Positions 7,996 to 61,340 are shown, counted from the first letter of the stretch. The stretch: 64,000 bases of DNA from a bacterium (GCA_020440605.1 JAGRNT010000003.1:90801-154800), one strand, 5' to 3'. The notes: generated by a model from the letters alone, not told the origin. Numbers and translations: made by a program.

Positions 7996-10900
7996 TCAGT
8001 TGGAGGAAAGTACGAACAGGGTGCTGCCACTGAAGGCCAGCAGCCTGCCATCCGCCAGCGGCGGGCCAAACTGCAGATCAGGCAGGAAGGATTCCGGTAC
8101 ATCGGCCCACAGCAGGTTCAGGCCCGGGTCGTAGGCCTTGAGCTGGGCGTTGCCAGAACCGTCCCGGCCCGCTGTATAGATCCGGCTGGCAGCGTCAACA
8201 AAGATGATTTCCTCATTGCCGATCTCAACGAAATCCTCCAGCCCGGAGCTGCCGCTGCGATGCAGCCTGTAGCTGCCGGAGGAGGAATCATAGCCGGTCA
8301 GGAATGCATGATCACCCCAGTCCTGCACCGGTGTTACAGCCCTTGGACTCTTCTGCGGAACCGCAGCACTCTCGAGCAGGCCACCGCTGCTGGTCAGGGT
8401 CAGGAGCTTGCCCGTCAGGAAGGAGTACCAGGCCAGCCTGCCGCTGTCCAGGAACATCGGTGCATCAACCTTGAAGCGGAAATCGTTGCTGCCTGCCGGC
8501 ACAAGCGTCTTCCAGAGCAGCTCGCCCTCCATGCTGAAACCGGACAGATTCCCCTCCTCGCAGTAGAGGTTGCCATCCAGACCTACCGTTGCCAGCACGG
8601 TCAACCCGCCATACTCCCTGAGCTTCTGCCCGGCAGTGGAGAAATTGGCAAGGCAGGTATCAGCCGTCAGGACTGAGCCGTTCGGCGCAAGCGCCAGGTC
8701 GGCATAGCCATGGTTGTCAAGCTGTGCCTGCCAGATTCGCTGGCCGCTGCCGCTCAGCGCATCCAGACGCTTGCCGGGCAGCAGCACGTATACGTTGTCA
8801 TTGTAGCCACAGGCTGCATCTGTCAGCCGCAGCGTGTCGCTGCCGTACTGCCAGCGCAGCGCACCCTGGGGACTGAGACGGCGCAGCCTGCCGCCGGCCA
8901 CGATCAGGATGTCACCAGCCGGTGCCACGAAGGCAGAACTGATCTCCAGCCCGCCGGTATCATGCAGGACCGTCAGCTCCGCCCCGGGACCCGGCCCGTT
9001 GTGGCTGCTGCGCCGGGTGCGCTGCGGGTCATGATAGCGGCTTGGCCAGCATTCCCCGGCCCGCCCCCGGGCGCTCTCACTCCAGTACAGGCCTGGCTGT
9101 CCGTCGTAGATTCCCTTGATGCGGTACTCATAGACTGAATCAGCATCAAAGGGGGGAGAGGCCGGATTTCCATTGCCATGCAGGAAGTAGTCCGTGGTCG
9201 GCAGGTCCGCGATCTGGGTCCAGTCCACCGGGCCGTTCCCCTCGATGCAGCGGTACTGCAGACGGTAGCCGTCCAGGTGCGGAATCGCATTCCAGTAGAC
9301 GGCCACCTGGTTGTTGTAGTAACCGTCCGTGGCCTGCACGTCGTCAATGTCAATCGAGAAGACCTCTATGTCGAGTGAGCAGCTGTCCTCCTGGCCGGCG
9401 AAGTCCTGGACGATCAGGTTCACGGTGTTGACGCCGATGTCAGCCGGACCGAAGGTGTGCTCAATGTAGGGTTCCGCTGTGGTCTGATCACCGAAGCCGT
9501 CGTTATCCCAGTCCCATTTGTAGGCGGCAATGCCGGTTGCGGCGATGCTCTCGGAGGCATCGAAACCCAGCGGGCGCAGCGGTGGGACCGCCGGGGCATC
9601 CGCCCTGAGGATGGCAGAAGGCAGTGGCTCCTCGCCATTCTCCAGGCAGAACAGCTCGCCATGGTCATTGGAGAAGTAGAGCAGGCCATGACGGTCCAGG
9701 GAGATGGACTTGCGCACGGGATGGCCGGCGTTGAATGACCACAACAGCAGCCCGGAGCGATGGAAGGCATAGACCCGCCCATCCGAGGATCCGATGTAGA
9801 TGACGCCGTTGCCACTGACGACCGGGGCCGATTCCACCGGTCCGCCCGTGAGGTAGGACCAGTTGATTGTGCCCTGGGGACTGACGCTGTAGACGCGGCT
9901 GTCCAGGCAGCCGAAGATGATGTCCTGTTCAGCGGTCAGGGCGACTGATACATTGATCGCCGCGGGGAACTGCAGTTCCCAGACCAGGTTGCCAAAGATG
10001 TCCAGGCGGCTGAGTTTGCCGTTGTCACTACCGTAGACGATGGATCCGTCCGGCAGGATCGTCGCAGAGCTGAAGATCCGTCCGCCGGTCTGATGTTTCC
10101 AGACAGGCTTACCCAGGGAATTGAGCTGGATCACGGACCCCTGCAGGGTTGGCACGTAGACTTCCCCGCCTGCTGTCAGGGCCGGACTGGCGCTTATGCC
10201 CTCTCCGGCGTCATATTGCCAGAGCAGATTGCCGAAGTGGTCCAGTTTGTAGACCTGGTGGTCGAGATTGCCGAGGTAGACATTGTCCTCGGCATCGCAG
10301 ATCGGCGGGCTGATGATCTCGCCATTCGTCTGGAACTGCCATTCCAGTGTTCCGAAGCGGTCAAGGCAGTACAGCCTGCTGTCATAGCAGCCGACGAACA
10401 GCTTGCCGTTGTGCGCGAGGCAGGGTGTGCTGTCCAGCCGGCCCTCCGCACTGAATTCCCCGATGATGTTGCCCTCGTCGTCAATCGCGAAGAACTTCGC
10501 GAATTCCGTGCCCACGAACATGTTGCCAATGGAGTCGATGGAGATGGAGGAGGTCAGCCCCCCATCCATCGAGAGCTTCCAGCGCAGCGCCTTGTTGAGC
10601 GGGCCGGGAACTTCGACGCGCTGGCCCTGGCCGATGTCGTAGCCGTAGTGAGGCCACTGCGGCTGGCTGAAGCGGTAACTGGCCGGACCGTCAGCGTCAC
10701 CATCCGTGAAGCGGAACCAGTAGATGTCGTAGTCGTCCGCCGGGACGCTGTACCTGAACAGCAGGCGGGTCCCGCTGATTCCGGCCTCCAGCGGGACAGT
10801 GGCGATCACAACGGCGCCTGGTCCATCGGGCTGCTGGGGATCCGGCGGGAAGTCGTCGAAGGACTCGCTGGCAAACAGACGGGTGCCGAGGATCCTGCGT

Positions 10901-11376
10901 CCGAAGTTCTGCCCGATCGGCGTCACATCCGCGAGGTTGATCACGCCATTGCCATCACCGTCAATCACGGCCTGGATGGAGAGGTAGTCAAACTCGCCCT
11001 CCTCTCCGAAGTGGTTCGCCAGCGGCACGAGATCCGCAGCATTCACTTCGCCGTTCTGGTCATAGTCACCTGCTGCATCGTAGTACCACTGGAATGCGCC
11101 ATCCACATAGTTGAGACCGCGCAGCCGGGCGTCGGAAACCGCCGAGACCGTGCGAGGAGTATCGTCACTGCTGAGAACCCGCTCCAGTTCAGTCTGCAGC
11201 ATGGCCAGCAGTCCGGCATCAGGCAGCTCATCAGCTGCAGGCTGCACGGAGCTGGCAACGACCTGCCCGGGCTGCCCGTCGATGGGCTGCAACCGCGCCA
11301 TCCCCTGCGTTCCTGATGCACAGCCAGCCAGCATGAGCAGCAGTGCGATCACCCCCGGTTTCCAGCCAGCGGACAT
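7996..11376 (-). CDS. Large lipoprotein: dockerin-like EF-hand pair, PQQ/BamB-like propeller, PKD, FN3-like, second PQQ-like propeller
   Basis: Start moved to MSAGWKPGVIALLLMLAGC (lipobox; GGGGAGG SD). DYDQNGEVNAADL / DGDGNGVINLADV, repeated LLWQY/LEWQF...SSP/SSA units, YKWDWDNDG. Confidence 0.85.
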   Translation of the reverse strand: MSAGWKPGVIALLLMLAGCASGTQGMARLQPIDGQPGQVVASSVQPAADELPDAGLLAMLQTELERVLSSDDTPRTVSAVSDARLRGLNYVDGAFQWYYDAAGDYDQNGEVNAADLVPLANHFGEEGEFDYLSIQAVIDGDGNGVINLADVTPIGQNFGRRILGTRLFASESFDDFPPDPQQPDGPGAVVIATVPLEAGISGTRLLFRYSVPADDYDIYWFRFTDGDADGPASYRFSQPQWPHYGYDIGQGQRVEVPGPLNKALRWKLSMDGGLTSSISIDSIGNMFVGTEFAKFFAIDDEGNIIGEFSAEGRLDSTPCLAHNGKLFVGCYDSRLYCLDRFGTLEWQFQTNGEIISPPICDAEDNVYLGNLDHQVYKLDHFGNLLWQYDAGEGISASPALTAGGEVYVPTLQGSVIQLNSLGKPVWKHQTGGRIFSSATILPDGSIVYGSDNGKLSRLDIFGNLVWELQFPAAINVSVALTAEQDIIFGCLDSRVYSVSPQGTINWSYLTGGPVESAPVVSGNGVIYIGSSDGRVYAFHRSGLLLWSFNAGHPVRKSISLDRHGLLYFSNDHGELFCLENGEEPLPSAILRADAPAVPPLRPLGFDASESIAATGIAAYKWDWDNDGFGDQTTAEPYIEHTFGPADIGVNTVNLIVQDFAGQEDSCSLDIEVFSIDIDDVQATDGYYNNQVAVYWNAIPHLDGYRLQYRCIEGNGPVDWTQIADLPTTDYFLHGNGNPASPPFDADSVYEYRIKGIYDGQPGLYWSESARGRAGECWPSRYHDPQRTRRSSHNGPGPGAELTVLHDTGGLEISSAFVAPAGDILIVAGGRLRRLSPQGALRWQYGSDTLRLTDAACGYNDNVYVLLPGKRLDALSGSGQRIWQAQLDNHGYADLALAPNGSVLTADTCLANFSTAGQKLREYGGLTVLATVGLDGNLYCEEGNLSGFSMEGELLWKTLVPAGSNDFRFKVDAPMFLDSGRLAWYSFLTGKLLTLTSSGGLLESAAVPQKSPRAVTPVQDWGDHAFLTGYDSSSGSYRLHRSGSSGLEDFVEIGNEEIIFVDAASRIYTAGRDGSGNAQLKAYDPGLNLLWADVPESFLPDLQFGPPLADGRLLAFSGSTLFVLSSN

Positions 11377-11550
11377 ATGAATTCCTCCCCGAAGCTTCTG
11401 CAGTCCGATGGTAACACCGCAGGCCGCTGCGGGAGGATGACACAAGCCGGGCAGTTCCGGGGAACAGTTCGCCTGGCCCGCTGCCGGTGGCCGGCCATGG
11501 GCCTGCAGACCTGCCAGACCATGGGTCTGGCCTCCTGCAGTTCAGGCCTC

Positions 11551-18107: not shown

Positions 18108-20615
18108 CTAGTGGTAGATCGTGCCGAAGCGGATGAAGTCATCCTCGAAACTCTTGTAGACAATGACGGGCTGGCCGTCGGCTTCTCCCACATCCAGATC
18201 ATCCAGGCCGATGTCATCAAAGGTCGTGAGCAGGATCTCATCGCCCCAGCTGTTGCCTGAGGCGTCCAGTGCGGGCACGAAGATCAGGCGGTGCTCATCG
18301 AGATGTTCATGGAACACGATGAAAGGCAGGCCGCCGGCGATGCCCATGCGCAGCCTGCCGAAATTAGTGGAGCTGGAGACCAGCTTCGTGGCGATCCACT
18401 GATTCTCCTGCACACCCGGCTGGTACTTGACTCGCAACTCATCCAGGCTGGTGTTCTGGGCCACGAAGCAGGCCAGCAGGCCGGACTGCAGCCTGATTGC
18501 ATCCAGCCGGCTTGCGCTGTTCCAGTCACTGTCACTGCCCTGTATCGCGATGCCCCAGCTGCCGCCGTCGGCATCATTGCCTTCACAGCTTCGCCAGCTG
18601 GAGGGGCTGCCGGTGCTCCTGCTGAAGACCGCCAGTGGGCGCCCCACGGCATCCAGCAGCACGGGATTGCTTCCCGTACCCGCGGTGCTGTCCAATGTCA
18701 CCGTCGCGCCCCAGGCGTTGCCCTGGGTATCCGCTGCCCGGGTGTAATAGACGATGTCTCCCCCGTAGTGCAGAATGGCGGGCCGGCCGTTGATCAGCGT
18801 CAGGTCCAGCTGGTATCCGGAATTCAGGCCGCTGTCAATCTCAACAGCCGTGCTCCAGCTGCTGCCATCAGCGGCGGTAGCCCTGGCATACATCACCCCA
18901 CCGGGAGTGTCATCATAGAAGGCCACGGCGGGATTGCCATCAACGACGGCCAGCGCCACCTCGTAGTTGCAGTTGTCATTGTCGTGGACCTTGACCGGAG
19001 TGCCCCAGCTCTGTCCGCTGCTGTCGCCCGCCAGTGCATAGTATGGCAGCTTGGTATCGCCGTCCACGTAACAGAGGGCAGGCACTCCGTTCACGGTCTC
19101 CAGGGTCAGGCCGGGACAGAATCCGCATTCGGCCAGGGGAATGAACTCAGCTCCGCGGACGGTGATGCTGACAGCCGCGACGGTCTGGGCTCCATTGTCG
19201 TCGGTCACACGGATGCGTGCGGGATAGCGGCCGGCAGCGGAATAGGTCCAGCTCGCCCCGGGATCCGTGCCGCCGTCAAGGTCGTAGGTACCGTCTCCCT
19301 CGAAGTCCCATTCATATTTGGCAATGCTGCCATCAAGGTCGATGCTGTTGCCTGCATCAAAAGTGACAAGCTGGCCGATGGCAACATTACTGCTGGAGGC
19401 ATTGATGCCCGCAAACGGCGGCAGATTGGCAATGCTGACCAGCACGCTCAGTCCGCCGAGTGCGGTATATGTGTTGCCGGAGTCATAGCCCCGCACACGG
19501 GGGCGCAGGATGCCGGCGCTGCCAATCGTCATCGTGTACTCGCCGTCACTGGAACCTGCAAGTTCGAAGATGCCGTCACCGTCCAGATCCAGGTCATACA
19601 GCTCAGCTCCGGAAACCGTGATTGTCAGCTCAGTGCCGAGCGGGACCAGTGTGGAATCCGCACTGACGGAGATCTGCCGCTGTGTGTCGCTCTGGATGTC
19701 GGCGGTGATGCTGCCGCTCGCGAAGGGACCGCGGTTGCCATTGATGTCCACTGCGGCCACGCGGATGTAGTAGAAACCCTGGGGCAGAGTCAGTTGATGA
19801 CGGGTGGTGCCCTCCAGGTAGCCGATGTTCCGGACCCCGACCGCATCCGGAGAGTTGAAGCTGGAGCTTGAATAGTAGACTGCATATCCGGCCAGGTCTC
19901 CATCCGCAACCGGATCCCAGGAGAGGTCGATGCTCCCTCCCGTGATCGAGCCTGCGACACCGCTGACCTCGCCCGGGGGATCGGTGTCACCGGCCGGGCG
20001 CAGGGTGAGAGCCAGGCCCACCAGGTCCAGCCCGGATCCATCATGGGTCAGGACAGCCACCCAGGCGTTGCCGAGACTGCTCAGGTGACTGGAATCCGGA
20101 TCGAGCAGGATCCGCACATGGCTGTCAGTGAAGGGGCCGCTCCAGTCCCAGCGGCCGGTGCTGAAGTTGGCAGCGGCAGCGTAGTACTGATTGCCCGGCT
20201 GCAGGTTGGCATCGACGCTGAGTACACCCGGTTCGCTGCCAGCCAGCGGAAAGCGGTGCAGAGTCCATGCGGATGACCCGGCGCCTGACTGGATGCTTAC
20301 CGCTGCGCCGTCCTTGCCGACTGAGCCTGAACTGTCGAAGTAGTCTCGCCCTGCAAGGAAGTCATCATTGACGGACAGGGCGCTGGCAACGGCATTGCGC
20401 GATGGGATCAGGTAGCCATCGGCGTTCAGGCTCTCACCCGGCTGCAGATTGTCAATGGGAAAGCGCGGTTGATCCAGGTTGCCAGCATCGAGATCGGGCT
20501 TCAGGACCGGGTCTGGCCCCGGCTGCGAGAGGCGGCTGCTTCCGGCCGCTCCACCACACGACATCAATGAGCACAGCAGGCAGAGGCCTGCCAGCGAAAG
20601 CAGAAAGCGATTCAT
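18108..20615 (-). CDS. Lipoprotein: conserved N-terminal beta module, FN3, PKD, BNR-like propeller
   Basis: MNRFLLSLAGLCLLCSLMSC (AGGAG SD); GRWDWSGPF; LSWDPV...LAGYAVYY; YEWDFEGDG; repeated xxGxPA(V/I)xF blades. Confidence 0.85.
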   Translation of the reverse strand: MNRFLLSLAGLCLLCSLMSCGGAAGSSRLSQPGPDPVLKPDLDAGNLDQPRFPIDNLQPGESLNADGYLIPSRNAVASALSVNDDFLAGRDYFDSSGSVGKDGAAVSIQSGAGSSAWTLHRFPLAGSEPGVLSVDANLQPGNQYYAAAANFSTGRWDWSGPFTDSHVRILLDPDSSHLSSLGNAWVAVLTHDGSGLDLVGLALTLRPAGDTDPPGEVSGVAGSITGGSIDLSWDPVADGDLAGYAVYYSSSSFNSPDAVGVRNIGYLEGTTRHQLTLPQGFYYIRVAAVDINGNRGPFASGSITADIQSDTQRQISVSADSTLVPLGTELTITVSGAELYDLDLDGDGIFELAGSSDGEYTMTIGSAGILRPRVRGYDSGNTYTALGGLSVLVSIANLPPFAGINASSSNVAIGQLVTFDAGNSIDLDGSIAKYEWDFEGDGTYDLDGGTDPGASWTYSAAGRYPARIRVTDDNGAQTVAAVSITVRGAEFIPLAECGFCPGLTLETVNGVPALCYVDGDTKLPYYALAGDSSGQSWGTPVKVHDNDNCNYEVALAVVDGNPAVAFYDDTPGGVMYARATAADGSSWSTAVEIDSGLNSGYQLDLTLINGRPAILHYGGDIVYYTRAADTQGNAWGATVTLDSTAGTGSNPVLLDAVGRPLAVFSRSTGSPSSWRSCEGNDADGGSWGIAIQGSDSDWNSASRLDAIRLQSGLLACFVAQNTSLDELRVKYQPGVQENQWIATKLVSSSTNFGRLRMGIAGGLPFIVFHEHLDEHRLIFVPALDASGNSWGDEILLTTFDDIGLDDLDVGEADGQPVIVYKSFEDDFIRFGTIYH

Positions 20616-20726: not shown

Positions 20727-23228
20727 CTACTTGTAAACCGTGCCCAGGTTGATGACGTTCTCGCCTTCGGCCTTGTAGGAGAAGATCACACGCTCCCCGG
20801 TGCCGAGCACTGCGAGCTGTTCCACATAGTCCGTACCGTGTTCCAGCAGCACGATCTGCTCACCCCAGTCGAAGCCGTAGACATCGCGGGCTTCCACGTA
20901 GAAGAGGCGCTTGGGAATCGTCGCGAACTCCTCGAAGATGATGAAGGGCAGTCCATTCATCCTGCCTAGTTTCGCGATCCGCGGACGGCCACCCTTGCTG
21001 ACAATCTGCGGCTCTCCCCAGTTGTCACTGGGCTGCTGGTTGCTGAGGTAACTCACGCGTAGCTGGTCGCCGTAGATCGTCTCGCCGCTGTAGCAGGCGA
21101 TGAAGCCCGGACCGGAGGCGATGGTGTCCATCCAGTTGCCGTCATCATTGCCGGAGTCGCCGGCGACAGTCGGAATGCTCCAGGCGATGCCATCCGCATC
21201 GTTGGCCTTTGCACCGTACCAGTTCTGCAGCGGGGCACTCTGCAGGAAGACGGCGGATGGTCCACCCAGGGTGGGCAGCAGCTGGGGGTTGAAGCCGCTG
21301 ACCGGCGAATCGAAGAGCTTGACACCGGGGTTCCAGCTGGTGCCCGTCACATTGCTGCTGCGCAGGTACCAGGTTTCATCACTGCCCGTGCTCTGCATGA
21401 TGATTGCGGGATTGCCGTTGACGATTTCCATGTCCAGCCCGTTGCCCATGTTGATTGCGCCGACCTGGACCGGCGCAGCCCAGGCGCTGCCGTCGCTGCT
21501 GCTGGCACGCATGTAGAGCACGCGGTCCAGCCCGCTGCTGCGGAAGGCCACCGCCGGGTTGCCGGAAACGGTCTGGACGGACAGGGCATTGCTGACGGTG
21601 GACGTGTCGTAGATCTCCGTGGGGTTGGGCCAGCCGTCGCCACGTTCATCGAGGGAGCGCATGAACCACAGGCTCTCGCTGGCGCCGTTGATGAAGAAAA
21701 GCGCGGGTCGACCGGCGACGTCCATCATCTGCAGTCGTGAATTGGCACCGGTCTCCGCCAGCTGGAAGCTGCTGGCACCACGCACCGTCAGTGTGGCGAA
21801 TGCGGATGAGGAATCACCATCCTCGTCGGTGACACGCATCTCGACGTCATAGTAGCCCGGTTCAGTATATGTATGGCTGGCGAAGGGCGTGCTGCCCGTG
21901 TCGTCATCGAAGTTGCCATCGCCGTCGAAGTCCCATTCGAAGAAGTCAATCGTGCCATCCAGGTCCTGGCTGTTGACACCACTCATGCGGATGCTCTGGC
22001 CTGGTGCGATGCTTGTCTGTTCAAGTTCCAGGTCGGCGAAGGGCGGCAGGTTGGCGATCGTCACCAGCACGCTCAGGCCTCCGAGGGCCACGAGCTCACC
22101 ACCCGCATCATGTCCACGCACCCGCGCACGCAGGATCCCTGCGCTGCTGGCCGGCATGAAGTACTGGCTGGCGCTGTCGTCAGTGATCTCGAAGCTGCCG
22201 TCGCCGTCAAAGTCAATGTCGTAGAGATCCGCTCCGGAGACGTTCAGTTCCACCTGCTCCCCGATCTCCGTGAAGCTCGAGCCTGCCGTGATCAGCAGGC
22301 CGCTGCCGGGCTGACCGCTGACAGTGAGCTGCTGCAGTCCACTGAGCGGACCCTCGTTGCCATTGGTATCGAGTGCGCTCACGCCGATGAAGTAACTGCC
22401 GGGCTGCAGTTCAAGCAGATGCCGGGTCGTTCCCTCCAGATATGGCAGCGCACTGACTCCCACGGCGTGGGGGTTGATGAAACCCTGCTGTGACCAGTAG
22501 ATCCGGTAGCCGGCCAGATCACCCTCGGCATTGTCATTCCACTGCAGTTCAGCGGCACCGGATACAGCTGAGGCCGTCAGGCCGCTGACCGCCGCCGGAG
22601 CCTGTTCGTCACCCAGGCTGGCCGGACTGATGGAAACCCCCACCAGTTCGAGGCTGACATCATCGTAGCCGAGCACGGCCGTGAAGCAGTTGCCAAGCCC
22701 GCTGGTATAGTCCGCCGCCGGATCCAGCGGGATGCGCACGTGACTGTCAGTGAACGGGCCGTGCCAGTCCCAGCGCTGAGTGCTGAAGTTTGATACGCCG
22801 ACGTAGTAGCTCGCAGCATTCACTCCGGGAAGCAGGTTCGCATCAGCACTGACAACCCCCGGCTCCTGCCCGGCGAGCACGAAGCGGTGCATTCCCCAGG
22901 CGCTCTCTCCTGGTGTTGCCAACAGGGTCGCGGAGATGTCATTCTTGTCCGAGATTCCAGCGCCCTCTTCCAGTTCCGCTCCTGCGAGGAATTCATCACT
23001 GATGCCAAGTGCACTGGCGACTGCATTGCGCTCAGCCGCAACAAGGCCTGCGCCGTCAAGTGTTTCACCAGGCAGCAGCCTGTCCACTGGAAAGGCGGGC
23101 GGTCCTGACGGTCCGCTTATTGCATCATTGGCTGCTGGTGGATTGACGGCAGTGGTGGTCTGTCCGCCACCGCAGGACATTCCAAGCATTGCCAGGCAGA
23201 GAATGGGTGGAAACAGCAGTCTGCGCAT
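20727..23228 (-). CDS. Lipoprotein, tandem paralog of 18108-20615
   Basis: Same architecture over the full length: RNAVASALG, RWDWHGPFTDSHVRI, LAGYRIY, FEWDFDGDG, GNPAVAF/GNPAII blades. Confidence 0.87.
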   Translation of the reverse strand: MRRLLFPPILCLAMLGMSCGGGQTTTAVNPPAANDAISGPSGPPAFPVDRLLPGETLDGAGLVAAERNAVASALGISDEFLAGAELEEGAGISDKNDISATLLATPGESAWGMHRFVLAGQEPGVVSADANLLPGVNAASYYVGVSNFSTQRWDWHGPFTDSHVRIPLDPAADYTSGLGNCFTAVLGYDDVSLELVGVSISPASLGDEQAPAAVSGLTASAVSGAAELQWNDNAEGDLAGYRIYWSQQGFINPHAVGVSALPYLEGTTRHLLELQPGSYFIGVSALDTNGNEGPLSGLQQLTVSGQPGSGLLITAGSSFTEIGEQVELNVSGADLYDIDFDGDGSFEITDDSASQYFMPASSAGILRARVRGHDAGGELVALGGLSVLVTIANLPPFADLELEQTSIAPGQSIRMSGVNSQDLDGTIDFFEWDFDGDGNFDDDTGSTPFASHTYTEPGYYDVEMRVTDEDGDSSSAFATLTVRGASSFQLAETGANSRLQMMDVAGRPALFFINGASESLWFMRSLDERGDGWPNPTEIYDTSTVSNALSVQTVSGNPAVAFRSSGLDRVLYMRASSSDGSAWAAPVQVGAINMGNGLDMEIVNGNPAIIMQSTGSDETWYLRSSNVTGTSWNPGVKLFDSPVSGFNPQLLPTLGGPSAVFLQSAPLQNWYGAKANDADGIAWSIPTVAGDSGNDDGNWMDTIASGPGFIACYSGETIYGDQLRVSYLSNQQPSDNWGEPQIVSKGGRPRIAKLGRMNGLPFIIFEEFATIPKRLFYVEARDVYGFDWGEQIVLLEHGTDYVEQLAVLGTGERVIFSYKAEGENVINLGTVYK

Positions 23229-26736: not shown

Positions 26737-29700
26737 ATGAAGCGCTGGCTTTCCCTGTTCATGATCTTGGCAGTCACCTGCCAGCTTGCTGGCTGCTCCG
26801 GTGGTCAGCACAGCGAGCTGCCGGTAGCGGTGCCGGACCTGCAGCAGCAGGCGGCAGGTTTTCCCGCTGGTCTGCCTGAGGACAGGCTGCAGCCATGGGA
26901 ACAGCTTGATGATAATGGCAATGTGATTGCCGTCGCAAGATCCAGCAGTGCCATCAACCGGGACAGTGAGCTCATCGCGGGTGTGGAACGCTTCAGCTCC
27001 TCGGGTAATGTTAGTGACAACGGAGAGGCCAGCCGCATCATCAGCGCCAGCGGCAGTTCTGCGCATGCCCTGTACCGTATCCCACTGGCAGGCGGACAGC
27101 CAGGTGCAGTCAGTGTTGATGCGAACCTGATTGCCGGCAAGGGGTATTTCATCGGTATCGCCGATTATGCGAGTGGACGCTGGCAGTGGCATGGCCCCTT
27201 CACTGACAACCACATCAGGCTCAGCACTGCAGCTTCCGGCCCGCTGGCCAGCCCGCTTGGCAACCTCTTCGTTTCCGTACTGGTACATGATGGAGCTGCA
27301 CTGGACTGCGTCGGTATCGGCTGGAATCCGATGGATCCGCTGGACGTCTCAGCTCCTGCCACTCCGCAGAATGCGGCACTCACGGCACTCGCCGGCGGCA
27401 TCAGGCTGAGCTTTGAGACAGTGCCGGACCCGCAGCTGGCCGGTTACGGAATCTACTACAGCAGGAATTCCTTCATCAACGGCAATGCCGCCGGTGTCAG
27501 GCAGCTTGGATACCTCGAAGGCAGTACCGAACACTTCCTGCCCGCTGCTCCGGGAGAGGAGCTGTACGTGAGGGTCAGTGCCATCGACTTCTCCGGCAAT
27601 CAATCGGCACTCAGTCAGATAGTCAGCGCGACTGCTCTGGAAGGCGGGGTCCCGGACCTGACGGTTACCCTGGACAAACCCAGTGCCATGCTGCAGGAGT
27701 CAGTCAACCTGCAGGCGACTGGAGCGGACAGCTACGACTTCGATCTGGACGGCGATGGCAGCTTTGAGATCCTTGGCAGCAGCAGCGGCAGCATCGCAGT
27801 GGCAACGGACAGGCTGGGAATCATCAGGCCGGCAGTGCGTGGGCATGGCGTGGATGCCAGTGCGGTGGCCCTTGGCAGCGTCAGCCTGCTGATCAGTGGT
27901 AACAACCGGCCCGTGGCAGAGGCAATGGCCAGCCCGGCGACGGGCACTGCCCCGCTGGATGTGACATTCAGCGGCACCGCCAGCACGGACTTCGATGGCA
28001 CGATAGTCGGCGGTGGCTGGGACTTCGATGGTGATGGTACCTATGACGTCTGGGACGACACTGACATAGTGCATGTCACTTCCGCAAACCACACCTATGC
28101 CGCGCCTGGCCTCTACAACGCCCGGCTCAGGGTTGTGGATGATGGCGGGGCCTGGGACGTTGACACCCTCGCGATCCTCGTCAGCTCGCCGGCGGATCCG
28201 GACAACATAGCTCCTACGGCCGACCTGCAGGCCGATCTGAGCAGTGGCGATGCCCCTCTGAGTGTCAGCTTCAATGCCTCCGGCAGCAGTGATCCGGACG
28301 GAAGCATTGTGGAGTACGCCTGGGACTGGGACGGCGACGGTCTCTATGACGCCATCGGCGAGGCTGGCAGTGCGATGCACGTATATGCCGGGCCGGGCAT
28401 ATTCAATGCGACCCTGCGGGTCGAGGACAACCATGGTGCGCGGGACACGGCGAGCATTGAGATCAATGTCAACGTGGCAGGCAATGAACTGCCCAGTGCC
28501 TCCCTGTCCGTTGACAATGAACTGCCTCAGGCGGGGAACATGGTCCGTCTTGACGCATCAGCCTCACTGGATCCTGACGGCAGTATTGCCAGGTATGAGT
28601 GGGACTTCGACGGTGATGGCAACTGGGACGCGAACGGCAGCAGTCCTTCCGCCACGCACACTTTCCTGGCCCGGGCATCCTACAGGGTCCGGCTCCGGGT
28701 GACGGACGACATGGGCGCACAGGCCGAGACAGGGAAAGTGATCAAGGTCTCGCTCGGTCCCTGGTCGCTGCCTGGCTATGACACGATGAACAACCGGCAG
28801 AGTCCCAATCTCGGGGCGCAGACATCGGCCATCAGGTGGTCATACTTGACTCCGAATGTTGTCAGTGGTGAACTGGCGGTGACTCCCGAGGGTACGATCT
28901 ACGCCGGATGCTGGAACGGCAAGCTGTACGCCCTGAATCATGATGGATTCCTTCAGTGGACATACACGAGCGCAGAGGCGATAACTGCGGGAATTGCCCT
29001 TGGGTCGGACGGAACGCTGTACTTCGGCAGTGATGACAACTTCCTGCACGCGGTCCTGCCTGACGGCAGGCGGAAGTGGAGGTTTGCCACGGGGGACGAT
29101 GTCAGGAGTTCACCGACAATCGCGGCGGACGGGACCGTGCTGTTCGGAAGTCTTGACAACAAGTTCTACGCTGTCAATCCGGATGGCACCCTGAAGTGGA
29201 GCTTCACCGCCGGCAACGACATCCTCGGACCCGCTGCCGCAATTGATCCTGACGGCTTGATCTACTTCTGCAGTGACGGGGGCAGCCTGTATGTGCTTGA
29301 TCCGGATGGCAGCCTGGCATGGCAGTACGATCCTCCTTCCGGAGTCAGAGGTGCGCCGGCTATCGACGGCAATGGAATCGTCTATGTCGCCAATGCTGGC
29401 AACCTGCGCGCACTCAATCCCGGGGGCTCGGAACACTGGACATATCAATTGCCATCCGGCGGGTCATACAGCCCATCGATTGCCGCGGATGGAACCATCA
29501 TCTTCGGTTCGAGCTCAGGGATTGTCTATGCGCTGCACCCGGATGGCACCATGAAGTGGCAGTTTCCCATGCTCCAGAGCGCAAGCTCGACACCCGTCAT
29601 CGGTTCAGATGGAACCGTCTACATCGGATCGGCTGACCAGAACATGTATGCGATTGACCAGGATGGTTCCCTCAAATGGAAAATCACCGGTGGTTTTGCA

Positions 29701-42867: not shown

Positions 42868-45800
42868 GTGATGACAAACAACCCGCTCCGCATCGTTCCT
42901 GCCCTGCTTGTCTCTCTTTCCCTGCTGTACAGCTCATGTGGCAGCACGGGCAAGCTGGATACCCAGACCCAGGCCCTGGAGCTGCGGCGTATTCCCACGG
43001 TCCTGGATGCGGATGGTCCCAGCGGGGAGCTGAACCTGCAGCAGCGCCGCAATGCGGACGGGCTCGAGCTGGACTTGATTGTCAGCAATGCCAAGGAGCT
43101 GCGCAGCCTGGCTGTGGAAATCAGCTATGACCCGCTGCTCTGGCAACTTTCCTCCGCTGAGCAGACAGGTCTGCTTGGCAATCCGGACCAGTTGATCGAG
43201 CACAGCATTGAAGTGCGACCGGGTCTGCTGGCGCATGGCCAGGTACTGCTGCGGCCCGGAACTCGCAGTGGCTTTTCCGGCAGTGGCCGCATCGCGCGTT
43301 TCCAGCTTGTCGCGCGGACCGGCCAGCTGGAGCGCAGCATCTCACGCATCAACGAGGACGTACAGGCCGTTGAGTGGGATGAAGGCAGCTGGAGCCTGAG
43401 CTGGAACTATGCCAACACCGGAGACTATGATCAGAACAGCGAAGTCAACATTGCGGACCTGACGCCGATCGGCATCCACTTCGGGGAAATCGTGACGGAT
43501 CCGCTCTCGTCCCAGGCCATCATTGACGGCGATGGCAACACGGAGATCAACATTGCCGACATCACTCCGATCGGCATCAACTACGGCAGCAGTATCGCCG
43601 GTTACCGCATCTGGGAACTGGCGGCTCCGCCGGACTGGGCCGGCGTGGTGGACACGCCGGTGCTGGCTGAAGTGACCATTGCGGAAGCAACGGGCCTGCC
43701 GGCTCAGGATCTGCTGCAGTTCAGCTACAGCTATGCGGCGGACCCCGGCTATCGCTGGCTGCGCCTTGCACCGTTCAATGCTGAGGAAACCGGGACGCCG
43801 ACGGACTACATCTTCACCTATCCGTCCATCCAGCCCTCTCTGGCTCTGGCCGATCCCGGTTCACTGTCCGGCAGCGGCACCGAAGCCGACCCCTACCGTC
43901 CCAGCCTGCCCGCCAGCATATCCCTGAGCCTGCTGCTGCCTGATGAGAGTGATGTCAGCAGCGATCCGCTGACGGAATATTCCGTCAGCGGTGCTCCGGG
44001 CGCGACGATCAGTGGCAACATGCTGGAGCTCGATGCGACCGCCGTTGGCAGTTACCAGCTGACAGCCAGCCATGACGGGGTGCCATCGCGACCCTATGCG
44101 CTCTACTTCCATGTCAATGAACCACCCCTGGCCCTGCTCAGTGCCGATCCCGCCAGCGGTCATGTGCCGTTCAATGCCCTGCTGGATGCCGGAGCCAGCA
44201 CTGATCCTGATGGAGAGATCGTGCTGGTCGAATGGGACTTCGAGAATGACGGTATCTTCGACCGGGAAACGGGAACAGCACTCACCACCCTGCATCGCTA
44301 TGATGAAGTCGGGGACCATGAAGCAGTCGTGCGTCTCACCGATGACAGCGGAGCCGTGAGTCTGAGCGCAGCGCTCACGATCACGGTTGAACCGCCGAAC
44401 CAGGCACCGCTGGCTCTCTTTTCCGCTGATCCGGGCAGTGGCAACACACCTCTGCCGGTCAGCTTTGATGCCTCCGCCAGCAATGATCCGGATGGCAGCA
44501 TCGTCAGCTACGACTGGGACTTTGACAATGATGGCAACTTTGAACTGAGTGGTACGACCGCAACGCTTGCCGAGTTCACATATACGGTCCCCGGAGACTA
44601 TGAAGTTCTGCTGCGGGTCAGGGATGACGATGGTGCCGTGTCATTCTCCGCGGTCCAGCACATCAATGTCGGTGGCAACTACCCGCCCCTGCCGGTGCTG
44701 CGCGCCACCCCCAGTGCCGGGCCATCACCGCTGCTCGTCGAGCTGGATGCCGCTGATTCCACGGACCCCGACGGCAGCATCGTGCTGGTTGAGTGGGATT
44801 TCGGCGGTGATGGGGAGTATGACCTGAGTGGTCCACAGCTGACTGTCAGCAATGTCTACACCGGCGACGGAGTGTTTCACCCCGTTATCCGTCTGACTGA
44901 CAACAATGGCGGAGTTGCCGTCAGTGAACCTGCCACAATCACGGTTGGCGTGGACGCCGGGAGTCCGCCCGTCGCCATTCTGAGCGGCAGTCCACTCAGC
45001 GGAGCGCCGCCTCTTGCGGTCAGTCTTGACGGCAGTGGCAGCACGGATCCCGACGGCGATATCGTACTGATGGAGTTCGACTTCGAGAATGACGGAATCT
45101 GGGACGCAAGCAGTACCGAAGGATTCACGGTTCAGCATGAGTACACCGCCGAGGGGAACTATGCAGCAGTGCTGAGGGTGACGGACAGCTACGGGTTCAG
45201 GGATATCAGTGAGCCGGTACTGATCTCGGTCAGCAGCGGACTGCCGCCGGATGCATTCTTCACCGCAGCCAGCTACAGCGGTACAGCACCCTTTGATGTG
45301 GTTGCAAGCGCAGCCGGCAGCTCCGATCCCGATGGGCCGATCGCCCTCTACGAATGGGATCCGGATGATGACGGTGTCTTCGAGTATTCCAGCACCGAAC
45401 CCACTGCGCAGTTCAGCCTGATCAGCAGCGGCCAGTACACGATCAACCTGCGCGTATCCGATGCTGATGGCATGACGGATACCTACTCCCGTGATTTCAC
45501 GGTGAGTCCCGCCACGCTGGGCTGGCAGGACTGGAACACCGGGATCGTCAATCCCCAGAATGCAATCCTGCGCACGGTTGGTGGCCGGGCCTCGGTTGCC
45601 TGGCAGTCGAGCAGCAGCACCGTCTACTTCAAGCGCAGCGCAGATGCCGACGGTCACAACTGGCCTGTGACCGGCATGCTCGTGGACTCGGACCTGAACG
45701 GGTATCCGGACGGCAGCATGCGCCTGCTGGACTTCTCGGTCAGTGGCGGCGTACCGCTGCTGCTGAGTCTGAAGGGCACCGCGTCCCAGGCGGACCATGA

Positions 45801-46902: not shown

Positions 46903-47232
46903 ATGAAACTGTTCAACACCATGATTGCGGCACTTCTTCTCATTGCGCTCAGCGCCTGCTCAAGCGGTTCTCCACTGCTGGATGACGCTGACAGCCGTTC
47001 CGCCAGTGGTACGGGCCTGGTCCAGGTGTGGGACGCCAACGCGGCGGAATTCAACTTTGACCCCGCCGACTACGGCAAGACGCTCGGTGAGCTCTACAAG
47101 GGCAACGACTTCGAGGCGGACATGGACCGCATGGAGGCAGTCGTCGCACAGGCCTTCCTCATGCCTCTCAACCAGGTGCAGGGTGAATCCACGATGGGCT
47201 TCGTGCACTTTGACGACGAAGTCGTCGACTGA
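46903..47232 (+). CDS. 109-aa lipoprotein A (cassette unit 1)
   Basis: GGAGG SD; MKLFN...ALSAC; ends GESTMGFVHFDDEVVD. Confidence 0.85.
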   Translation: MKLFNTMIAALLLIALSACSSGSPLLDDADSRSASGTGLVQVWDANAAEFNFDPADYGKTLGELYKGNDFEADMDRMEAVVAQAFLMPLNQVQGESTMGFVHFDDEVVD

Positions 47233-47481: not shown

Positions 47482-47811
47482 ATGCAGAAGATCAACATCA
47501 TCATCGCCGCCTTCGTCCTCGCCATCCTCGCTTCCTGCTCCGGCCAGACCGGCAGTGAACTGATGCCCGAGCGCAACACTGCGGAAGTCAACTCCATCAT
47601 CGATGTCTGGAATGCCTACGCTCCTCAGTACAACTTCGGCCCGGCCTACTCCCAGGAAACCCTCGGCCAGATCTACTTCGGCAACGACTTCGAGAGCGAC
47701 ATGAACAGCATGGAGCAGATCCTGGCTGATTTCTACGGCAAGTCCGCTGACGACGTGAACGGCGAGTCCACCATGGGCTTCGTGCACTTTGATGACGAGG
47801 TTGTCGACTGA
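47482..47811 (+). CDS. 109-aa lipoprotein B (cassette unit 2)
   Basis: AGGAG SD; MQKIN...ILASC; same GESTMGFVHFDDEVVD end. Confidence 0.85.
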   Translation: MQKINIIIAAFVLAILASCSGQTGSELMPERNTAEVNSIIDVWNAYAPQYNFGPAYSQETLGQIYFGNDFESDMNSMEQILADFYGKSADDVNGESTMGFVHFDDEVVD

Positions 47812-55312: not shown

Positions 55313-55318
55313 GCGCAG

Positions 55319-57618: not shown

Positions 57619-57634
57619 TTTCCTTTGGGGTTTC

Positions 57635-58990: not shown

Positions 58991-59105
58991 GTTCCTGTCC
59001 GGGATGCCGGCAGCATCCGTGCCGGATATGATACCGCCGGGCCGCAGGCTGCAGGCGCTCCGCTGCCTGACCATATAATGGCTGCATCCAGACGTTCGGA
59101 GATCC

Positions 59106-59636: not shown

Positions 59637-59681
59637 GCGGGAGCTCGCGCCGCGGTGCACTGGCAAGCGGAGACTTGAGTT

Positions 59682-61340
59682 ATGGACTGGAACCTGTGGC
59701 GACTGGCATGGCTGCCGGCCTGCATGCTGCTGCTCGCGGGCTGCAGCGGAAATCCCGGGAATGCTGATACTGCTGCTGGAGCGGGGATGGCCGCCGCAAT
59801 CGAGGAGCAGTGGCTGGCCCAGCTACCGCCCCTGCCGCAGCCGCGCAGCTCCAGTGGCAGTTCGCTCAGCGAGCGGGTCGGCAGCAACTACCTGATGAAG
59901 AGCAGCAATGCGATCGAGGATGGCAACTTCCTTGACCTGCTCAGCGGCGGCACCAGCCCGGCCTGGGCCTACTGGCAATACAAGCCCGGGGCCAGGGTGG
60001 TCACCAAGCTGGAAATCGTCGCCAACATTGACGCCGGCAATGAATACTGGGTCGCCGTGGCTGATTACGGCAGCGGCCGCTGGCAGTTCCGCGGCCCCTT
60101 CACGAGCTCCGCCGTGCTCAGGGCCGACGACTTCAACCTGCATTCCCCTGACGGGGACTTCTATGCCATGGCACTGACGGCAGGCGGCAGGAAGGCGCGC
60201 ATCGCCGCTGTGAATGTGACGACCGAGGACAACTGGCAGTGCATCACCCTGCGCTCGGATCTGTCGGTGAATACCCAGCCGCTGGTGGAGGTGGTGGACG
60301 GCAGGCCGGTGCTGCTGTGGTATGACAACGGCACTGATGCCTACCGCATCCTGCGCAGCAGCACATCCTACGGCGAGGACCCCGCGGACTGGGAGGAGGA
60401 GATCTTCCTGTTCACGGGAGATGAATTCCTGCGATTCACGGACTCGGCAGTCATCAATGGCAAGCTCGCAATCAGTTTCAGCGACGGCAACAAGCACGAC
60501 CTGAACTACTTCCGCGAAGGCATGACTGACTACATTGCACTCAGCGGGGACCTCAATCCATCAGGCGGGCGCAACTGCCTGCTGGAGGTGGAAGGCCATG
60601 CTGCCATCGCCTACCGCGACGGCACCGGCGGTGACAACAGCCAGGGAGCGCTTCTGTACATGCGCAGCGCCACTCCGAACGGCCAGCTGGTCGAGGACTG
60701 GGATGAGCGGGTCATCGTCTACGGCGGCAACTCCGGCTTTGACAAGCCGGACATGCAGATTGTCAACGGCCATCCGGCAATCGCGGCCTTTGACTATGCC
60801 TTTGAGAACGTGATGTACTGCTGGACCCCTGACAGCGACGGCATGACCGGGGAGAACTGGAAGAACCGGACCCTCTACACCAGCAATGACAACCCGGAGT
60901 TCATTAACCTGCGCGTACTGGACCAGTATCCGGCAATCGCCTTCCAGGATTCCAAGAACGGTGAGGAACTCTGGTTCATACAGGCAGCGGTGGCTGACCC
61001 GGGTGAGGAGCTCAATGACTGGAACAGCCCCTTCGTGATTGACACGACCGGCAATGTCGGCCAGGGCACGAGCCTGACCAACGTGGAGGGGCGGCCCTTC
61101 ATCTCATATCTGGAGGATGGCAGCGGCACCGAGCTGCGCTACGCCATTGCCAATACGCTGAACGGCATCCAGGGCAGCTGGCAGAAGGGACTGATTGAGG
61201 ACGAACACGTGCAGAGCTCCACGCTCCACACAAGTTCTCTCTCGATCGATGGACGCATCATCGTCTGCTACGTGGATTACAACGGCAGCGATATCCGCAA
61301 TATCCGCTGGTGCTGGCGCGAGGCCGGATCTCTCGAATAG
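59682..61340 (+). CDS. Lipoprotein: N module fused directly to a BNR-like propeller
   Basis: LLLAGC; VAVADYGSGRWQFRGPF; blades VDGRPVL, VEGHAAIAY, VNGHPAIAAF, VEGRPFISY as in 18108/20727. Confidence 0.82.
   Translation: MDWNLWRLAWLPACMLLLAGCSGNPGNADTAAGAGMAAAIEEQWLAQLPPLPQPRSSSGSSLSERVGSNYLMKSSNAIEDGNFLDLLSGGTSPAWAYWQYKPGARVVTKLEIVANIDAGNEYWVAVADYGSGRWQFRGPFTSSAVLRADDFNLHSPDGDFYAMALTAGGRKARIAAVNVTTEDNWQCITLRSDLSVNTQPLVEVVDGRPVLLWYDNGTDAYRILRSSTSYGEDPADWEEEIFLFTGDEFLRFTDSAVINGKLAISFSDGNKHDLNYFREGMTDYIALSGDLNPSGGRNCLLEVEGHAAIAYRDGTGGDNSQGALLYMRSATPNGQLVEDWDERVIVYGGNSGFDKPDMQIVNGHPAIAAFDYAFENVMYCWTPDSDGMTGENWKNRTLYTSNDNPEFINLRVLDQYPAIAFQDSKNGEELWFIQAAVADPGEELNDWNSPFVIDTTGNVGQGTSLTNVEGRPFISYLEDGSGTELRYAIANTLNGIQGSWQKGLIEDEHVQSSTLHTSSLSIDGRIIVCYVDYNGSDIRNIRWCWREAGSLE

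What the first reader, a model, noticed from the sequence alone, without database searches (positions are those of the whole stretch)
7996..61340. Shared R-[ST]-x-S motif after the lipoprotein tether: possible maturation or export site
Seen just before the first shared module in otherwise different lipoproteins: TP-RTVS-AV (7996), VA-RSSS-AI (26737), AE-RSVS-DD (37238), AQ-RSAS-DD (39546), LE-RSIS-RI (42868, after the cohesin), QP-RSSS-GS (59682), DS-RSAS-GT (46903). Variants: RNAVAS (18108, 20727) and RNTA (47482). It is often preceded by a Pro-rich xPxFPxxxL stretch. Known analogy: Bacteroidetes type V pilins are lipoprotein precursors cleaved after Arg/Lys before assembly. Inference: a lineage-wide processing or surface-sorting signal.
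Basis: partly seen in the sequence, partly recalled or inferred. Interest (0 to 1): 0.62.

Follow-up and report, generated by a model that had tools for sequence, protein, structure and literature searches.

The report
Junction motifs of two lipoprotein families
The shared Arg-x-x-Ser string is real and under selection, but it is the signature of two huge lipoprotein families in an uncultured wastewater bacterium (candidate phylum UBP7), sitting where the flexible lipid tether meets the first folded module, and it is not a general lipoprotein sorting signal; whether it is ever cut remains untested.

Summary
Genome-wide, R[ST]xS is enriched just after the lipobox: 65 observed against 29 expected (z=7), peaking 20-60 residues after the Cys.

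The enrichment comes from two paralogous families:
- **Class A:** 131 lipoproteins, six in the window. Each starts with lipobox, a ~38-aa Pro/Gln/Gly/Ala tether, [LWF]PxLPxD, a basic-x-small-Ser island, then an undescribed CBM6/36-like jelly-roll.
- **Class B/C:** about 70 lipoproteins, two in the window. R-x-x-[SA]-x-[AP]-P lies in a coil between a helix or cohesin-like domain and a hairpin plus dockerin.

The other ~260 candidate lipoproteins show no clear excess. The [ST] at +1 is not conserved. The Arg is the third most informative of 170 class A columns: R 223, H 25, K 17 of 281. Class A has over 1,800 clusters at 50% identity. Among the 30 relatives searched it occurs only in this class, and every genome of the window's own family has at least 64 copies, most over 100.

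The type V pilin analogy fails on fold, on FimA, and on a co-occurring Arg-protease.

My best reading is an uncleaved N-terminal cap or strap of each module (about 0.45). A recognition peptide or cleavage site is not excluded. This is a family signature of an undescribed domain, of moderate interest.

The parts
38873..39397 (-). Class A N-module of lipoprotein 37238-39448: lipobox Cys, tether, LPAFP (39299-39313), RSVS (39266-39277), jelly-roll domain
   Evidence: The AF2 model gives pLDDT 84.9. RSVS is residues 41-44 of the mature protein, in coil, and strand 1 starts at residue 47. Orthologues keep R and S: RSIS, RQVS, RSLS, RQAS.
41175..41678 (-). Class A N-module of lipoprotein 39546-41741: FPLWP (41601-41615), RSAS (41571-41582)
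59742..60245 (+). Class A N-module of lipoprotein 59682-61340: LPPLP (59823-59837), RSSS (59844-59855)
   Evidence: The whole protein has no Pfam hit.
26794..27348 (+). Class A N-module of lipoprotein 26737-29787. It belongs to the subfamily with a 'LQPWExLDxxG' insert between PxLPxD and the Arg. RSSS is at 26938-26949.
   Evidence: It is the best own-genome match to the profile.
22602..23174 (-). Class A N-module of lipoprotein 20727-23228. It carries the variant RNAVAS (23013-23030), with one extra residue between Arg and Ser.
19980..20558 (-). Class A N-module of lipoprotein 18108-20615: QPRFP (20457-20471), variant RNAVAS (20382-20399)
10852..11277 (-). Class B module of lipoprotein 7996-11376: amphipathic helix, coil holding RTVS (11143-11154), beta-hairpin, duplicated-F-hand dockerin
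   Evidence: The AF2 model shows a helix at 21-36, a coil at 37-50 (the 41-50 block has pLDDT 64), a hairpin at 51-67, then the dockerin. Foldseek to the type II dockerin 2y3n_B gives TMt 0.80.
43213..43638 (+). Class C module of lipoprotein 42868-46602: end of a cohesin-like domain, RSIS (43333-43344), hairpin, dockerin
   Evidence: The cohesin assignment is weak (Pfam E=0.27).
46996..47007 (+). RSAS in the small lipoprotein 46903-47232, 13 residues after the Cys. Not class A or B.
   Evidence: Its paralogue has RNTA at the aligned place.
47572..47583 (+). RNTA in the small lipoprotein 47482-47808, paralogue of 46903-47232

Best explanation
The R-[ST]-x-S strings are the Ser-rich versions of two separate junction motifs, each specific to a family and inherited by descent.

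**Class A.** The motif is [LWF]-P-x-[LF]-P-x-D, then 0-20 residues, then [R>H,K]-x-[A/S/T]-[S>A]-[A/G/S]-[I/L/V]. It closes a Pro/Gln/Gly/Ala-rich, acidic tether of about 38 residues. In nearly all copies it runs without indels into beta-strand 1 of an undescribed CBM6/36-like jelly-roll. That jelly-roll is the obligatory first domain of 131 lipoproteins in this genome.

**Class B/C.** The motif is R-x-x-[S/A]-x-[A/P]-P. It lies in the coil between an amphipathic helix (or a cohesin-like domain) and the beta-hairpin that precedes a dockerin, in about 70 further lipoproteins.

**Shown.**
- The motifs are real and conserved.
- They are confined to these two families.
- They lie at the module's N-terminal edge.

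**Inferred (most likely role).** The motif is an uncleaved N-terminal cap or strap. The basic side chain and the run of small residues would pin the start of the first strand to the body of the module. This would set where the flexible lipid tether ends, as part of a generic membrane-proximal 'pedestal' module that carries very different passenger domains.
For: **Confinement to two families.**
- The class split of the enrichment points to classes A and B/C.
- The PxLP...RxxS composite was found in 21 class A proteins and never outside class A.
- None of the 7 other lipoprotein paralog clusters has a conserved R..[SA] column.
- The class B/C extension R..[SA].[AP]P is seen 27 times against 1.1 expected and is absent from class A.

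**Descent.**
- The six window copies align with the motif in one register.
- All 131 own copies carry a lipobox and the domain directly after the tether.

**Coupling to the fold.**
- Columns 36-45 (the Arg to strand 1) almost never contain inserts; 20 of 281 sequences have one, after column 40. Length variation lies before column 36 (165 of 281) and after column 45 (116 of 281).
- In the AF2 model the Arg lies 6 residues before strand 1. The preceding 20 residues have pLDDT 70-78, against about 60 for the early tether.

**Tolerated substitutions.** These fit charge and packing rather than chemistry.
- Arg is replaced by His (25) and Lys (17).
- Ser is replaced by Ala (50 of 281).
- Flanking positions are A/S/T/G.
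- A whole genus of relatives uses K-x-x-S.

**Generic role of the module.**
- The passengers are PKD, FN3, PQQ beta-propellers, or domains without any Pfam match.
- The domain always starts at about residue 20 in 150 foreign representatives.
Against: - The Arg is more conserved than nearly every core residue: third of 170 columns.
- It nevertheless lies in predicted coil. Confidence there is only moderate in class A and low in class B (block pLDDT 64). High conservation in a flexible segment is the usual mark of a short linear motif read by another protein.
- Two unrelated modules share basic-x-small-[S/A] at the same topological place.
- Covariation gave no partner column.
Confidence: 0.45

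Rival explanations
1. Recognition peptide. The exposed PxLPxD...R-x-x-S segment (and R-x-x-S-x-AP in the dockerin class) is a short linear motif. It would be bound by a lineage-specific envelope component. That component could be the machinery that carries these lipoproteins to or across the outer membrane, or a docking partner that holds them in place. The jelly-roll would serve as the rest of the handle.
For: - The Arg and the two prolines are highly conserved in a predicted coil.
- The R..S island is flanked by length-variable segments.
- The module is strictly coupled to lipobox plus tether in more than 1,800 clusters and is never found internally.
- About half of the lipoproteome carries one of the two motifs.
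- The minimal form P-x-L-P-x-D-R resembles polyproline ligands ending in Arg (the resemblance is from my own knowledge).
- An Omp85 is present, so the cell is diderm.
Against: - No candidate receptor was identified.
- The A and B/C motifs differ outside R..S.
- The other ~260 candidate lipoproteins lack the motif, so it cannot be the general route.
- Presence of the Arg, the Ser and PxxP is statistically independent, with no co-loss.
Confidence: 0.25
2. Maturation site. The proteins use the lipoprotein route for export. A protease that needs a basic residue then cuts them at the motif. This frees the module and its passenger from the lipid anchor, as in type V pilins. The freed protein would stay on the surface through dockerin-cohesin pairing or the jelly-roll.
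For: - A basic residue lies 24-86 aa (median 39) after the Cys, in an exposed coil.
- It is the first Arg after the Cys in 86 of 192 copies, in a tether poor in R/K (2.6%).
- R and K interchange between genera.
- The same place is used in three architectures, including between a cohesin-like domain and a dockerin.
- The precedent is Mfa1/FimA: signal peptidase II, lipidation, surface transport, then Rgp cleavage at Arg49 just before beta-strands (PMC5954841).
- A lipoprotein with a C11 (clostripain-type) domain is encoded 4.5 kb beyond the window end (C54:159304-162240).
Against: - No pilin fold and no FimA family, with a working control.
- No strand is predicted before the Arg that could act as a removable A1 strand.
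- His replaces Arg in 9% of copies and Ala replaces Ser in 18%.
- C11 was not detected in two same-genus genomes, one of them closed, that carry over 100 family copies. It is present in two class-level genomes with none.
- The C25 search found nothing, but its control was silent.
- There is no direct evidence of any cleavage.
Confidence: 0.2
3. Modification site. The conserved Ser is the acceptor of an O-linked glycan or a phosphate, and the Arg is part of the sequon.
For: - Ser lies in a small-residue, Ala/Pro-rich context, as with general O-glycosylation of lipoproteins in some Gram-negatives (my own knowledge, not tested).
- The class B/C context is R-x-x-S-x-A-P.
Against: - The Arg is far better conserved than the Ser (3.86 vs 1.87 bits).
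- Ala replaces Ser in 50 of 281 class A copies, and often in class B.
- No transferase was sought or found.
Confidence: 0.05
4. Chance or composition. The strings arise from Ser/Arg-rich linkers and have no meaning.
For: This is plausible only for the two small lipoproteins at 46903 and 47482 (n=2), and for some of the 22 hits in unrelated lipoproteins.
Against: - Shuffles that keep each region's composition give z=7-10.
- The column is conserved in 281 sequences, most below 50% identical.
Confidence: 0.03

Closest known systems
Type V pilin precursors (FimA, Mfa1) of Bacteroidota
   Same: - Made as lipoproteins.
- A basic residue a few dozen residues after the lipidated Cys.
- Beta-strands begin right after that residue (PMC5954841).
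   Different: - The fold here is a CBM-like jelly-roll, not a pilin.
- There is no FimA family in the genome.
- No N-terminal strand is predicted before the Arg.
- The C-termini are diverse passenger domains, not donor strands.
- No co-occurring Arg-protease was found.
- Cleavage is unproven.
Lipoprotein export signal (LES) of Bacteroidota (Lauber et al. 2016, PMC5080379)
   Same: A short N-terminal motif in the tether of lipoproteins thought to be surface-exposed, found in a lineage with very many lipoproteins.
   Different: - LES is K-(D/E)2 or Q-A-(D/E)2 directly after the Cys, and it is domain-independent.
- Here positions +2 to +4 are Gly/Ser.
- The motif lies about 39 residues downstream and is bound to two module families.
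BACON-type N-terminal beta-sandwich domains of Bacteroidota surface lipoproteins (own knowledge, not tested here)
   Same: - A small beta-sandwich placed first after the lipid tether in many otherwise different surface proteins.
- Thought to act as a spacer or pedestal.
   Different: - No sequence relation: there is no Pfam hit at all.
- The fold class is CBM6/36-like.
- The domain is strictly N-terminal and always lipobox-linked.
- It has its own PxLP/Arg junction and occurs in 131 copies per genome.
CBM6 / CBM36 / CBM86 / CBM35 carbohydrate-binding modules
   Same: The jelly-roll fold of the class A domain matches at Foldseek E of about 3e-5 and TM 0.54-0.66 on the target.
   Different: - Sequence identity is about 12%.
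- There is no Pfam, NCBIfam or PDB sequence match.
- Sugar binding is untested.
- The position is fixed at the lipoprotein N-terminus.
X-module-dockerin (type II) units of cellulosomal scaffoldins
   Same: - The class B/C unit is a dockerin preceded by an extra structured element.
- The dockerin part superposes on 2y3n_B, 5m0y_B and 2b59_B.
   Different: - The preceding element is only a helix plus a hairpin, not an Ig-like X module.
- The unit sits near the N-terminus of lipoproteins in a diderm.
- The R-x-x-S-x-AP coil has no described counterpart.

Membership tests
Type V pilin precursor (FimA/Mfa) | Lipoprotein signal peptide with lipobox Cys | tested here: met
   Lipoboxes in all ten window genes and in all 131 class A genes
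Type V pilin precursor (FimA/Mfa) | Pilin fold or FimA/Mfa family membership | tested here: not met
   PF06321 is absent from the genome, with a positive control in B. thetaiotaomicron. The AF2 model matches CBM jelly-rolls.
Type V pilin precursor (FimA/Mfa) | N-terminal beta-strand before the Arg that covers the groove and is removed | tested here: not met
   Residues before the Arg are predicted coil with one 3-residue helix, and no strand. This is a prediction only.
Type V pilin precursor (FimA/Mfa) | Arg-specific processing protease present and co-distributed | tested here: inconclusive
   The C25 search found no hit, but its control was silent. C11 is present in the own genome but was not detected in same-genus genomes G001 (closed) and G003, each with over 100 family copies. 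It is present in G019 and G022, which have none.
Type V pilin precursor (FimA/Mfa) | Cleavage after the Arg in vivo | not testable with these tools
   Needs N-terminomics
Bacteroidota lipoprotein export signal (LES) | Acidic K-(D/E)2 or Q-A-(D/E)2 directly after the Cys | tested here: not met
   Positions +2 to +4 are G/S/A in classes A and B (G 0.44-0.66). LES definition from PMC5080379.
Undescribed UBP7_A lipoprotein N-domain (class A) | Lipobox, tether, PxLPxD, basic-x-small-S and jelly-roll with AWAxY and ADYxSGRW, always at the N-terminus | tested here: met
   Six window genes match. There are 131 in the genome. The profile finds 2,524 clusters at 50% identity, all starting at about residue 20.
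CBM6/CBM35/CBM36 clan | Beta-jelly-roll fold | tested here: met
   Foldseek E from 3e-5, TMt 0.54-0.66
CBM6/CBM35/CBM36 clan | Sequence-family membership and sugar or calcium-binding residues | tested here: not met
   No Pfam or NCBIfam hit on the domain. No PDB sequence relative. Ligand residues were not examined.
Dockerin | Duplicated calcium-binding F-hand (D-x-D-x-N-G-x-V-x-x-x-D, twice) and family match | tested here: met
   - Two repeats are visible in 7996 and 42868.
- Pfam Dockerin_1 scores 24.4 bits, above the 22.9 cut-off, in a paralogue. The window copy scores 16.8, below it.
- Foldseek to 2y3n_B gives TMt 0.80, rmsd 1.6.
Cohesin (N-terminal domain of 42868-46602) | Match to the cohesin family | tested here: inconclusive
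   PF00963 is the only hit, at E=0.27 and 11.9 bits against a 24.1 cut-off

The most novel reading that the evidence does not exclude
Export by the lipoprotein route, followed by cutting at a basic-x-small-Ser site, may be a general maturation scheme for about half of the lipoproteome of candidate phylum UBP7_A. Some 200 proteins per cell would be lipidated and moved outward on a ~38-residue tether, then released at the conserved Arg. They would then be re-held on the surface by dockerin-cohesin pairs or by the jelly-roll. This would extend the type V pilin logic from pili to a whole surface proteome, using an unidentified protease.
Probability: 0.13. Interest if true: 0.8.

Novelty: new variant of a known kind. 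Interest (0 to 1): 0.42.

Why it matters
Roughly 12-15% of this genome's genes are candidate lipoproteins. About half of those begin with one of two modules whose junction with the lipid tether is among their best-conserved features.

The class A module is an undescribed domain: no Pfam, NCBIfam or PDB relative, yet over 1,800 clusters at 50% identity. It appears only in this class among the relatives searched. Every genome of the window's own family has at least 64 copies, most over 100.

How bacteria outside Proteobacteria, Spirochaetes and Bacteroidota sort and display surface lipoproteins is an open question. A strictly N-terminal, lipobox-coupled module with an invariant-like Arg gives a concrete handle for experiments. 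If the site turns out to be cut or bound, it would define a new sorting or maturation signal. If it is only a structural cap, the result is a clean signature for annotating this family.

Tried and rejected
- **First motif finder.** The vectorised version found the domain motifs (WYYVAVADYDSGRW, AWAIYRF, GDYDQNGEV) as the strongest signals, not R..S. This showed that homology dominates the N-terminal regions.
- **Alignment search of genome contigs.** A single protein was used instead and gave the UBP7/UBP7_A labels.
- **Covariation.** Mutual information with APC over 281 sequences found no domain partner for columns 26, 28, 29, 36 or 39. This is uninformative because those columns barely vary.
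- **Co-loss test.** Presence of the Arg, the Ser and PxxP is independent.
- **Internal or non-lipoprotein copies.** I looked for such copies of the domain to separate 'fold' from 'tether' roles. None exist. The four apparent exceptions have lipoboxes that my regex missed, and the second hit in 26737-29787 falls in the beta-propeller.
- **General-signal idea.** Rejected: the other lipoproteins show no clear excess and no conserved column.
- **Single motif shared by A and B/C.** Rejected: their extensions differ.
- **C25 search.** Uninformative because the control was silent.
- **LolA.** The Pfam family was not found, but the genome is 87% complete and the family is divergent.
- **Literature.** Searches for UBP7, and for lipoprotein + dockerin + cohesin + Planctomycetes, returned nothing relevant.
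- **Model coordinates.** The tools do not return them, so contacts of the Arg could not be read.


Full report
**1. The observation**

All ten quoted strings are in the sequence, in genes that begin with a lipoprotein signal peptide and lipobox Cys. The coordinates in the finding are gene boundaries. The motifs themselves are listed under the report's parts. The Pro-rich element in front is also there: LPAFP, FPLWP, LPPLP and QPRFP.

**2. Is it more than chance?**

The window is C54:90801-154800 of a 4.0-Mb, 120-contig assembly. No gene caller was available, so I built a codon-bias ORF selection. It gave 3,010 genes covering 91% of the sequence.

I then screened for lipoboxes and found 358-442 candidates depending on stringency. 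That is 12-15% of genes, and some are false positives.

- R[ST].S occurs 65 times in mature residues 1-120, against 28.9 +/- 5.1 in within-region shuffles (z=7.05).
- Density peaks at 20-60 residues after the Cys (2.4-2.5 per 1000 aa), against about 0.5 further in.
- Non-lipoproteins show no excess (z=1.4).

The motif is real.

**3. What carries it: class A**

The six window genes 18108, 20727, 26737, 37238, 39546 and 59682 align over their first ~190 residues, with the string in one register.

An unbiased EM search of all lipoprotein N-termini found as its strongest signal 'WYYVAVADYDSGRW' in about 30% of them. An iterated HMM search found 131 genes with this domain. All of them have a lipobox, a tether and then the domain.

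The AF2 model of the 37238 N-module has mean pLDDT 84.9. It shows:
- 45 residues of coil, with block pLDDT 59, 62, 70, 73 and 78;
- then a ten-strand beta-sandwich.

RSVS is residues 41-44 and strand 1 starts at residue 47. Foldseek places the domain with CBM6, CBM36, CBM86 and CBM35 jelly-rolls (E from 3e-5, about 12% identity). Pfam, NCBIfam and PDB sequence searches give nothing for it.

A profile search of 1.84 billion representatives finds 2,524 clusters at E<=1e-3 and 1,824 at E<=1e-10. The match always starts at about residue 20, so that profile position 1 is the lipobox Cys.

Among relatives:
- the sister family in the order has 1-17;
- other families of the class have 0-8;
- genomes outside the class have none.

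Named relatives are MAGs labelled UBP7 / UBP7_A / 'Planctomycetales bacterium' from activated sludge.

**4. The true class A motif**

I aligned 281 sequences: 131 own plus 150 foreign representatives, the latter below 50% identical to each other.

| Column | Main residues (of 281) | Information |
|---|---|---|
| 26 | P 236 | 2.97 bits |
| 28 | L 210 | 2.39 bits |
| 29 | P 242 | 3.10 bits |
| 31 | D 131 | 1.23 bits |
| 36 | R 223, H 25, K 17 | 3.86 bits |
| 37 | variable (S 68, G 37; others lower) | 0.36 bits |
| 38 | A 114, S 48; T, P and G also seen | 0.87 bits |
| 39 | S 200, A 50 | 1.87 bits |
| 40 | A/G/S | 0.48 bits |
| 41 | I/L/V | 1.08 bits |
| 48 | G 242 | 2.30 bits |

- Column 36 is the third most informative of 170, after the Cys and the Trp of GRW.
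- R[ST].S in full is present in only 33 of 131 own copies and 17 of 150 foreign copies.
- R..[SA] is present in 96 of 131 own copies and 105 of 150 foreign copies.
- Orthologues of 37238 read RSIS, RQVS, RSLS and RQAS.
- Order- and class-level relatives keep R-x-x-S, or K-x-x-S in one genus (PPK[GA][TSA]S).
- Length variation lies before column 36 (165 of 281 sequences) and after column 45 (116 of 281). Columns 36-45 are almost insert-free; 20 sequences have an insert after column 40.
- The tether from Cys to Arg has a median of 38 residues (IQR 32-47). It is P/Q/G/A-rich and acidic. The Arg is the first Arg after the Cys in 86 of 192 copies.

**5. Class B/C**

Seventy-two lipoproteins have a dockerin-type repeat within 260 residues of the Cys. 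When they are aligned on the dockerin, 'R..S..P' is a majority column block whether the upstream element is an amphipathic helix (L..EL.RLGKDP, class B, window gene 7996) or a cohesin-like domain (class C, window gene 42868).

- The extended pattern R..[SA].[AP]P occurs 27 times against 1.1 expected (z=24). It is not shared by class A.
- Foreign homologues keep it: RSAA, RSASTPP, RTASVPP, RVVATPP and RLTAAAP.
- The AF2 model has mean pLDDT 87.2. It shows a helix at 21-36 (block pLDDT 98 and 90), a coil at 37-50 containing RTVS (block 64), a hairpin at 51-67, then the dockerin.
- The dockerin part superposes on type II dockerins (2y3n_B, TMt 0.80).
- Pfam Dockerin_1 is over its cut-off in one paralogue. 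Cohesin is only a weak hint (E=0.27).

**6. Not a general signal**

Split by class, R[ST].S gives:

| Group | Observed | Expected | z |
|---|---|---|---|
| Class A | 31 | 6.0 | 10.6 |
| Class B/C | 16 | 7.6 | 3.2 |
| Other 260 candidates | 22 | 14.0 | 2.2 |
| Other 260, R.[AST]S | 29 | 24.8 | 0.8 |

- None of seven other lipoprotein paralog clusters has a conserved R..[SA] column.
- The PxLP...RxxS composite never occurs outside class A.
- The two small lipoproteins at 46903 and 47482 are each other's paralogues. They keep an aligned Arg (RSAS and RNTA) 12-13 residues after the Cys. With two sequences this may be chance.
- Positions +2 to +4 after the Cys are Gly/Ser, not the acidic LES of Bacteroidota (PMC5080379).

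**7. Tests of the type V pilin analogy**

Type V pilins are made as lipoproteins, moved to the surface and cut by Arg-gingipains. In Mfa1 the cut is at Arg49, just before beta-strands (PMC5954841).

Here:
- the fold is not a pilin;
- PF06321 is absent, with a positive control;
- no strand precedes the Arg;
- the C-termini are PKD, FN3 and PQQ-propeller passengers.

The C25 search was silent, but so was its control.

A C11 (clostripain-type) domain is found in a 976-aa lipoprotein just beyond the window (C54:159304-162240). C11 was not detected in two same-genus genomes, G001 (closed) and G003, each with over 100 family copies. It is present in G019 and G022, which have none. It is therefore not a consistent partner.

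An Omp85 is present, so the cell is a diderm. LolA was not detected.

**8. Mechanism**

*Shown:*
- There are two family-specific junction motifs under purifying selection.
- They lie at the end of the tether, or of the first element, and at the N-edge of the next module.
- They are inherited with the module.

*Inferred:*
- For class A, the insert-free run from the Arg into strand 1 and the tolerance of H, K and A fit a structural cap or strap.
- So do the small flanking residues and the moderately confident model of the preceding 20 residues.
- I rate this reading at 0.45.

*Against it:*
- The Arg is extremely conserved in a coil.
- Model confidence at the motif is low in class B.
- Basic-x-small-[S/A] recurs at the same topological place in unrelated modules.

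These points keep a recognition peptide (0.25) and a cleavage site (0.20) alive. A modification sequon (0.05) is unlikely, because the Arg is better conserved than the Ser and Ala often replaces the Ser. Chance (0.03) is excluded for classes A and B/C.

**9. Novelty and verdict**

The string is a family signature rather than a new signal, and its published form (R-[ST]-x-S) is not the consensus. The family behind it is undescribed, very large and lineage-restricted. An earlier scan note (e1-1162907) had already pointed at its N-terminal domain. What this report adds:
- the bipartite PxLPxD / basic-x-small-Ser junction, with its column statistics;
- the separate R-x-x-S-x-AP junction of the dockerin class;
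- the domain's distribution among relatives;
- the failure of the pilin analogy.

I score interest as moderate. The decisive experiment is N-terminomics without trypsin.

Noticed in passing
whole genome (G000); window genes 7996, 11554, 12067, 13887, 18108, 20727, 24675, 26737, 37238, 39546, 42868, 46762, 47374, 49758, 59679, 61393: A very large share of genes carries a lipobox: 358-442 of about 3,010 ORFs by my crude caller. Many of them are 600-1,300 aa long. Positions +2 to +4 after the Cys are mostly Gly or Ser (C-G-G-G).
   Followed up: partly
G000-G023: Copy number of the class A domain jumps from 0-17 per genome in sister families (1.5-2.8 Mb genomes) to at least 64, and mostly over 100, in the window's own family (2.8-4.1 Mb). 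This is a lineage-specific expansion making up over 4% of genes.
   Followed up: partly
window 26737-29787, 18108-20615, 20727-23228; many relatives (L106-L132): A subfamily has a conserved insert, 'W/F-P-x-x-L-P-x-D-x-x-Q-P-W-E-x-L/V-D-x-x-G', between the PxLP element and the Arg. It dominates in the distant relatives. Columns of this insert covary with domain column 127.
   Followed up: no
window 42868-46602 and about 25 other genes, e.g. C54:178838, 193314, 195052, 197184, 251942, 253991, 257031: These lipoproteins carry a cohesin-like domain and a dockerin in the same chain, separated only by the R-x-x-S coil and a hairpin. If the pair is compatible, they could self-dock or chain head-to-tail.
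   Followed up: no
C54:159304-162240 (4.5 kb past the window end): A 976-aa lipoprotein with a split match to Peptidase_C11 (clostripain family). It was not detected in two same-genus genomes.
   Followed up: partly
window 46903-47232 and 47482-47808: Two small paralogous lipoproteins end in the same ESTMGFVHFDDEVVD tail. This is already the subject of another first-stage note (e1-5237149).
   Followed up: no
window 1537-2445, 5461-7113, 15737-17278, 50777-52522: Ordinary neighbours: a RimK-type ATP-grasp, GroEL, the Der/EngA GTPase, and a PD40-cyclophilin fusion. None is linked to the motif.
   Followed up: yes
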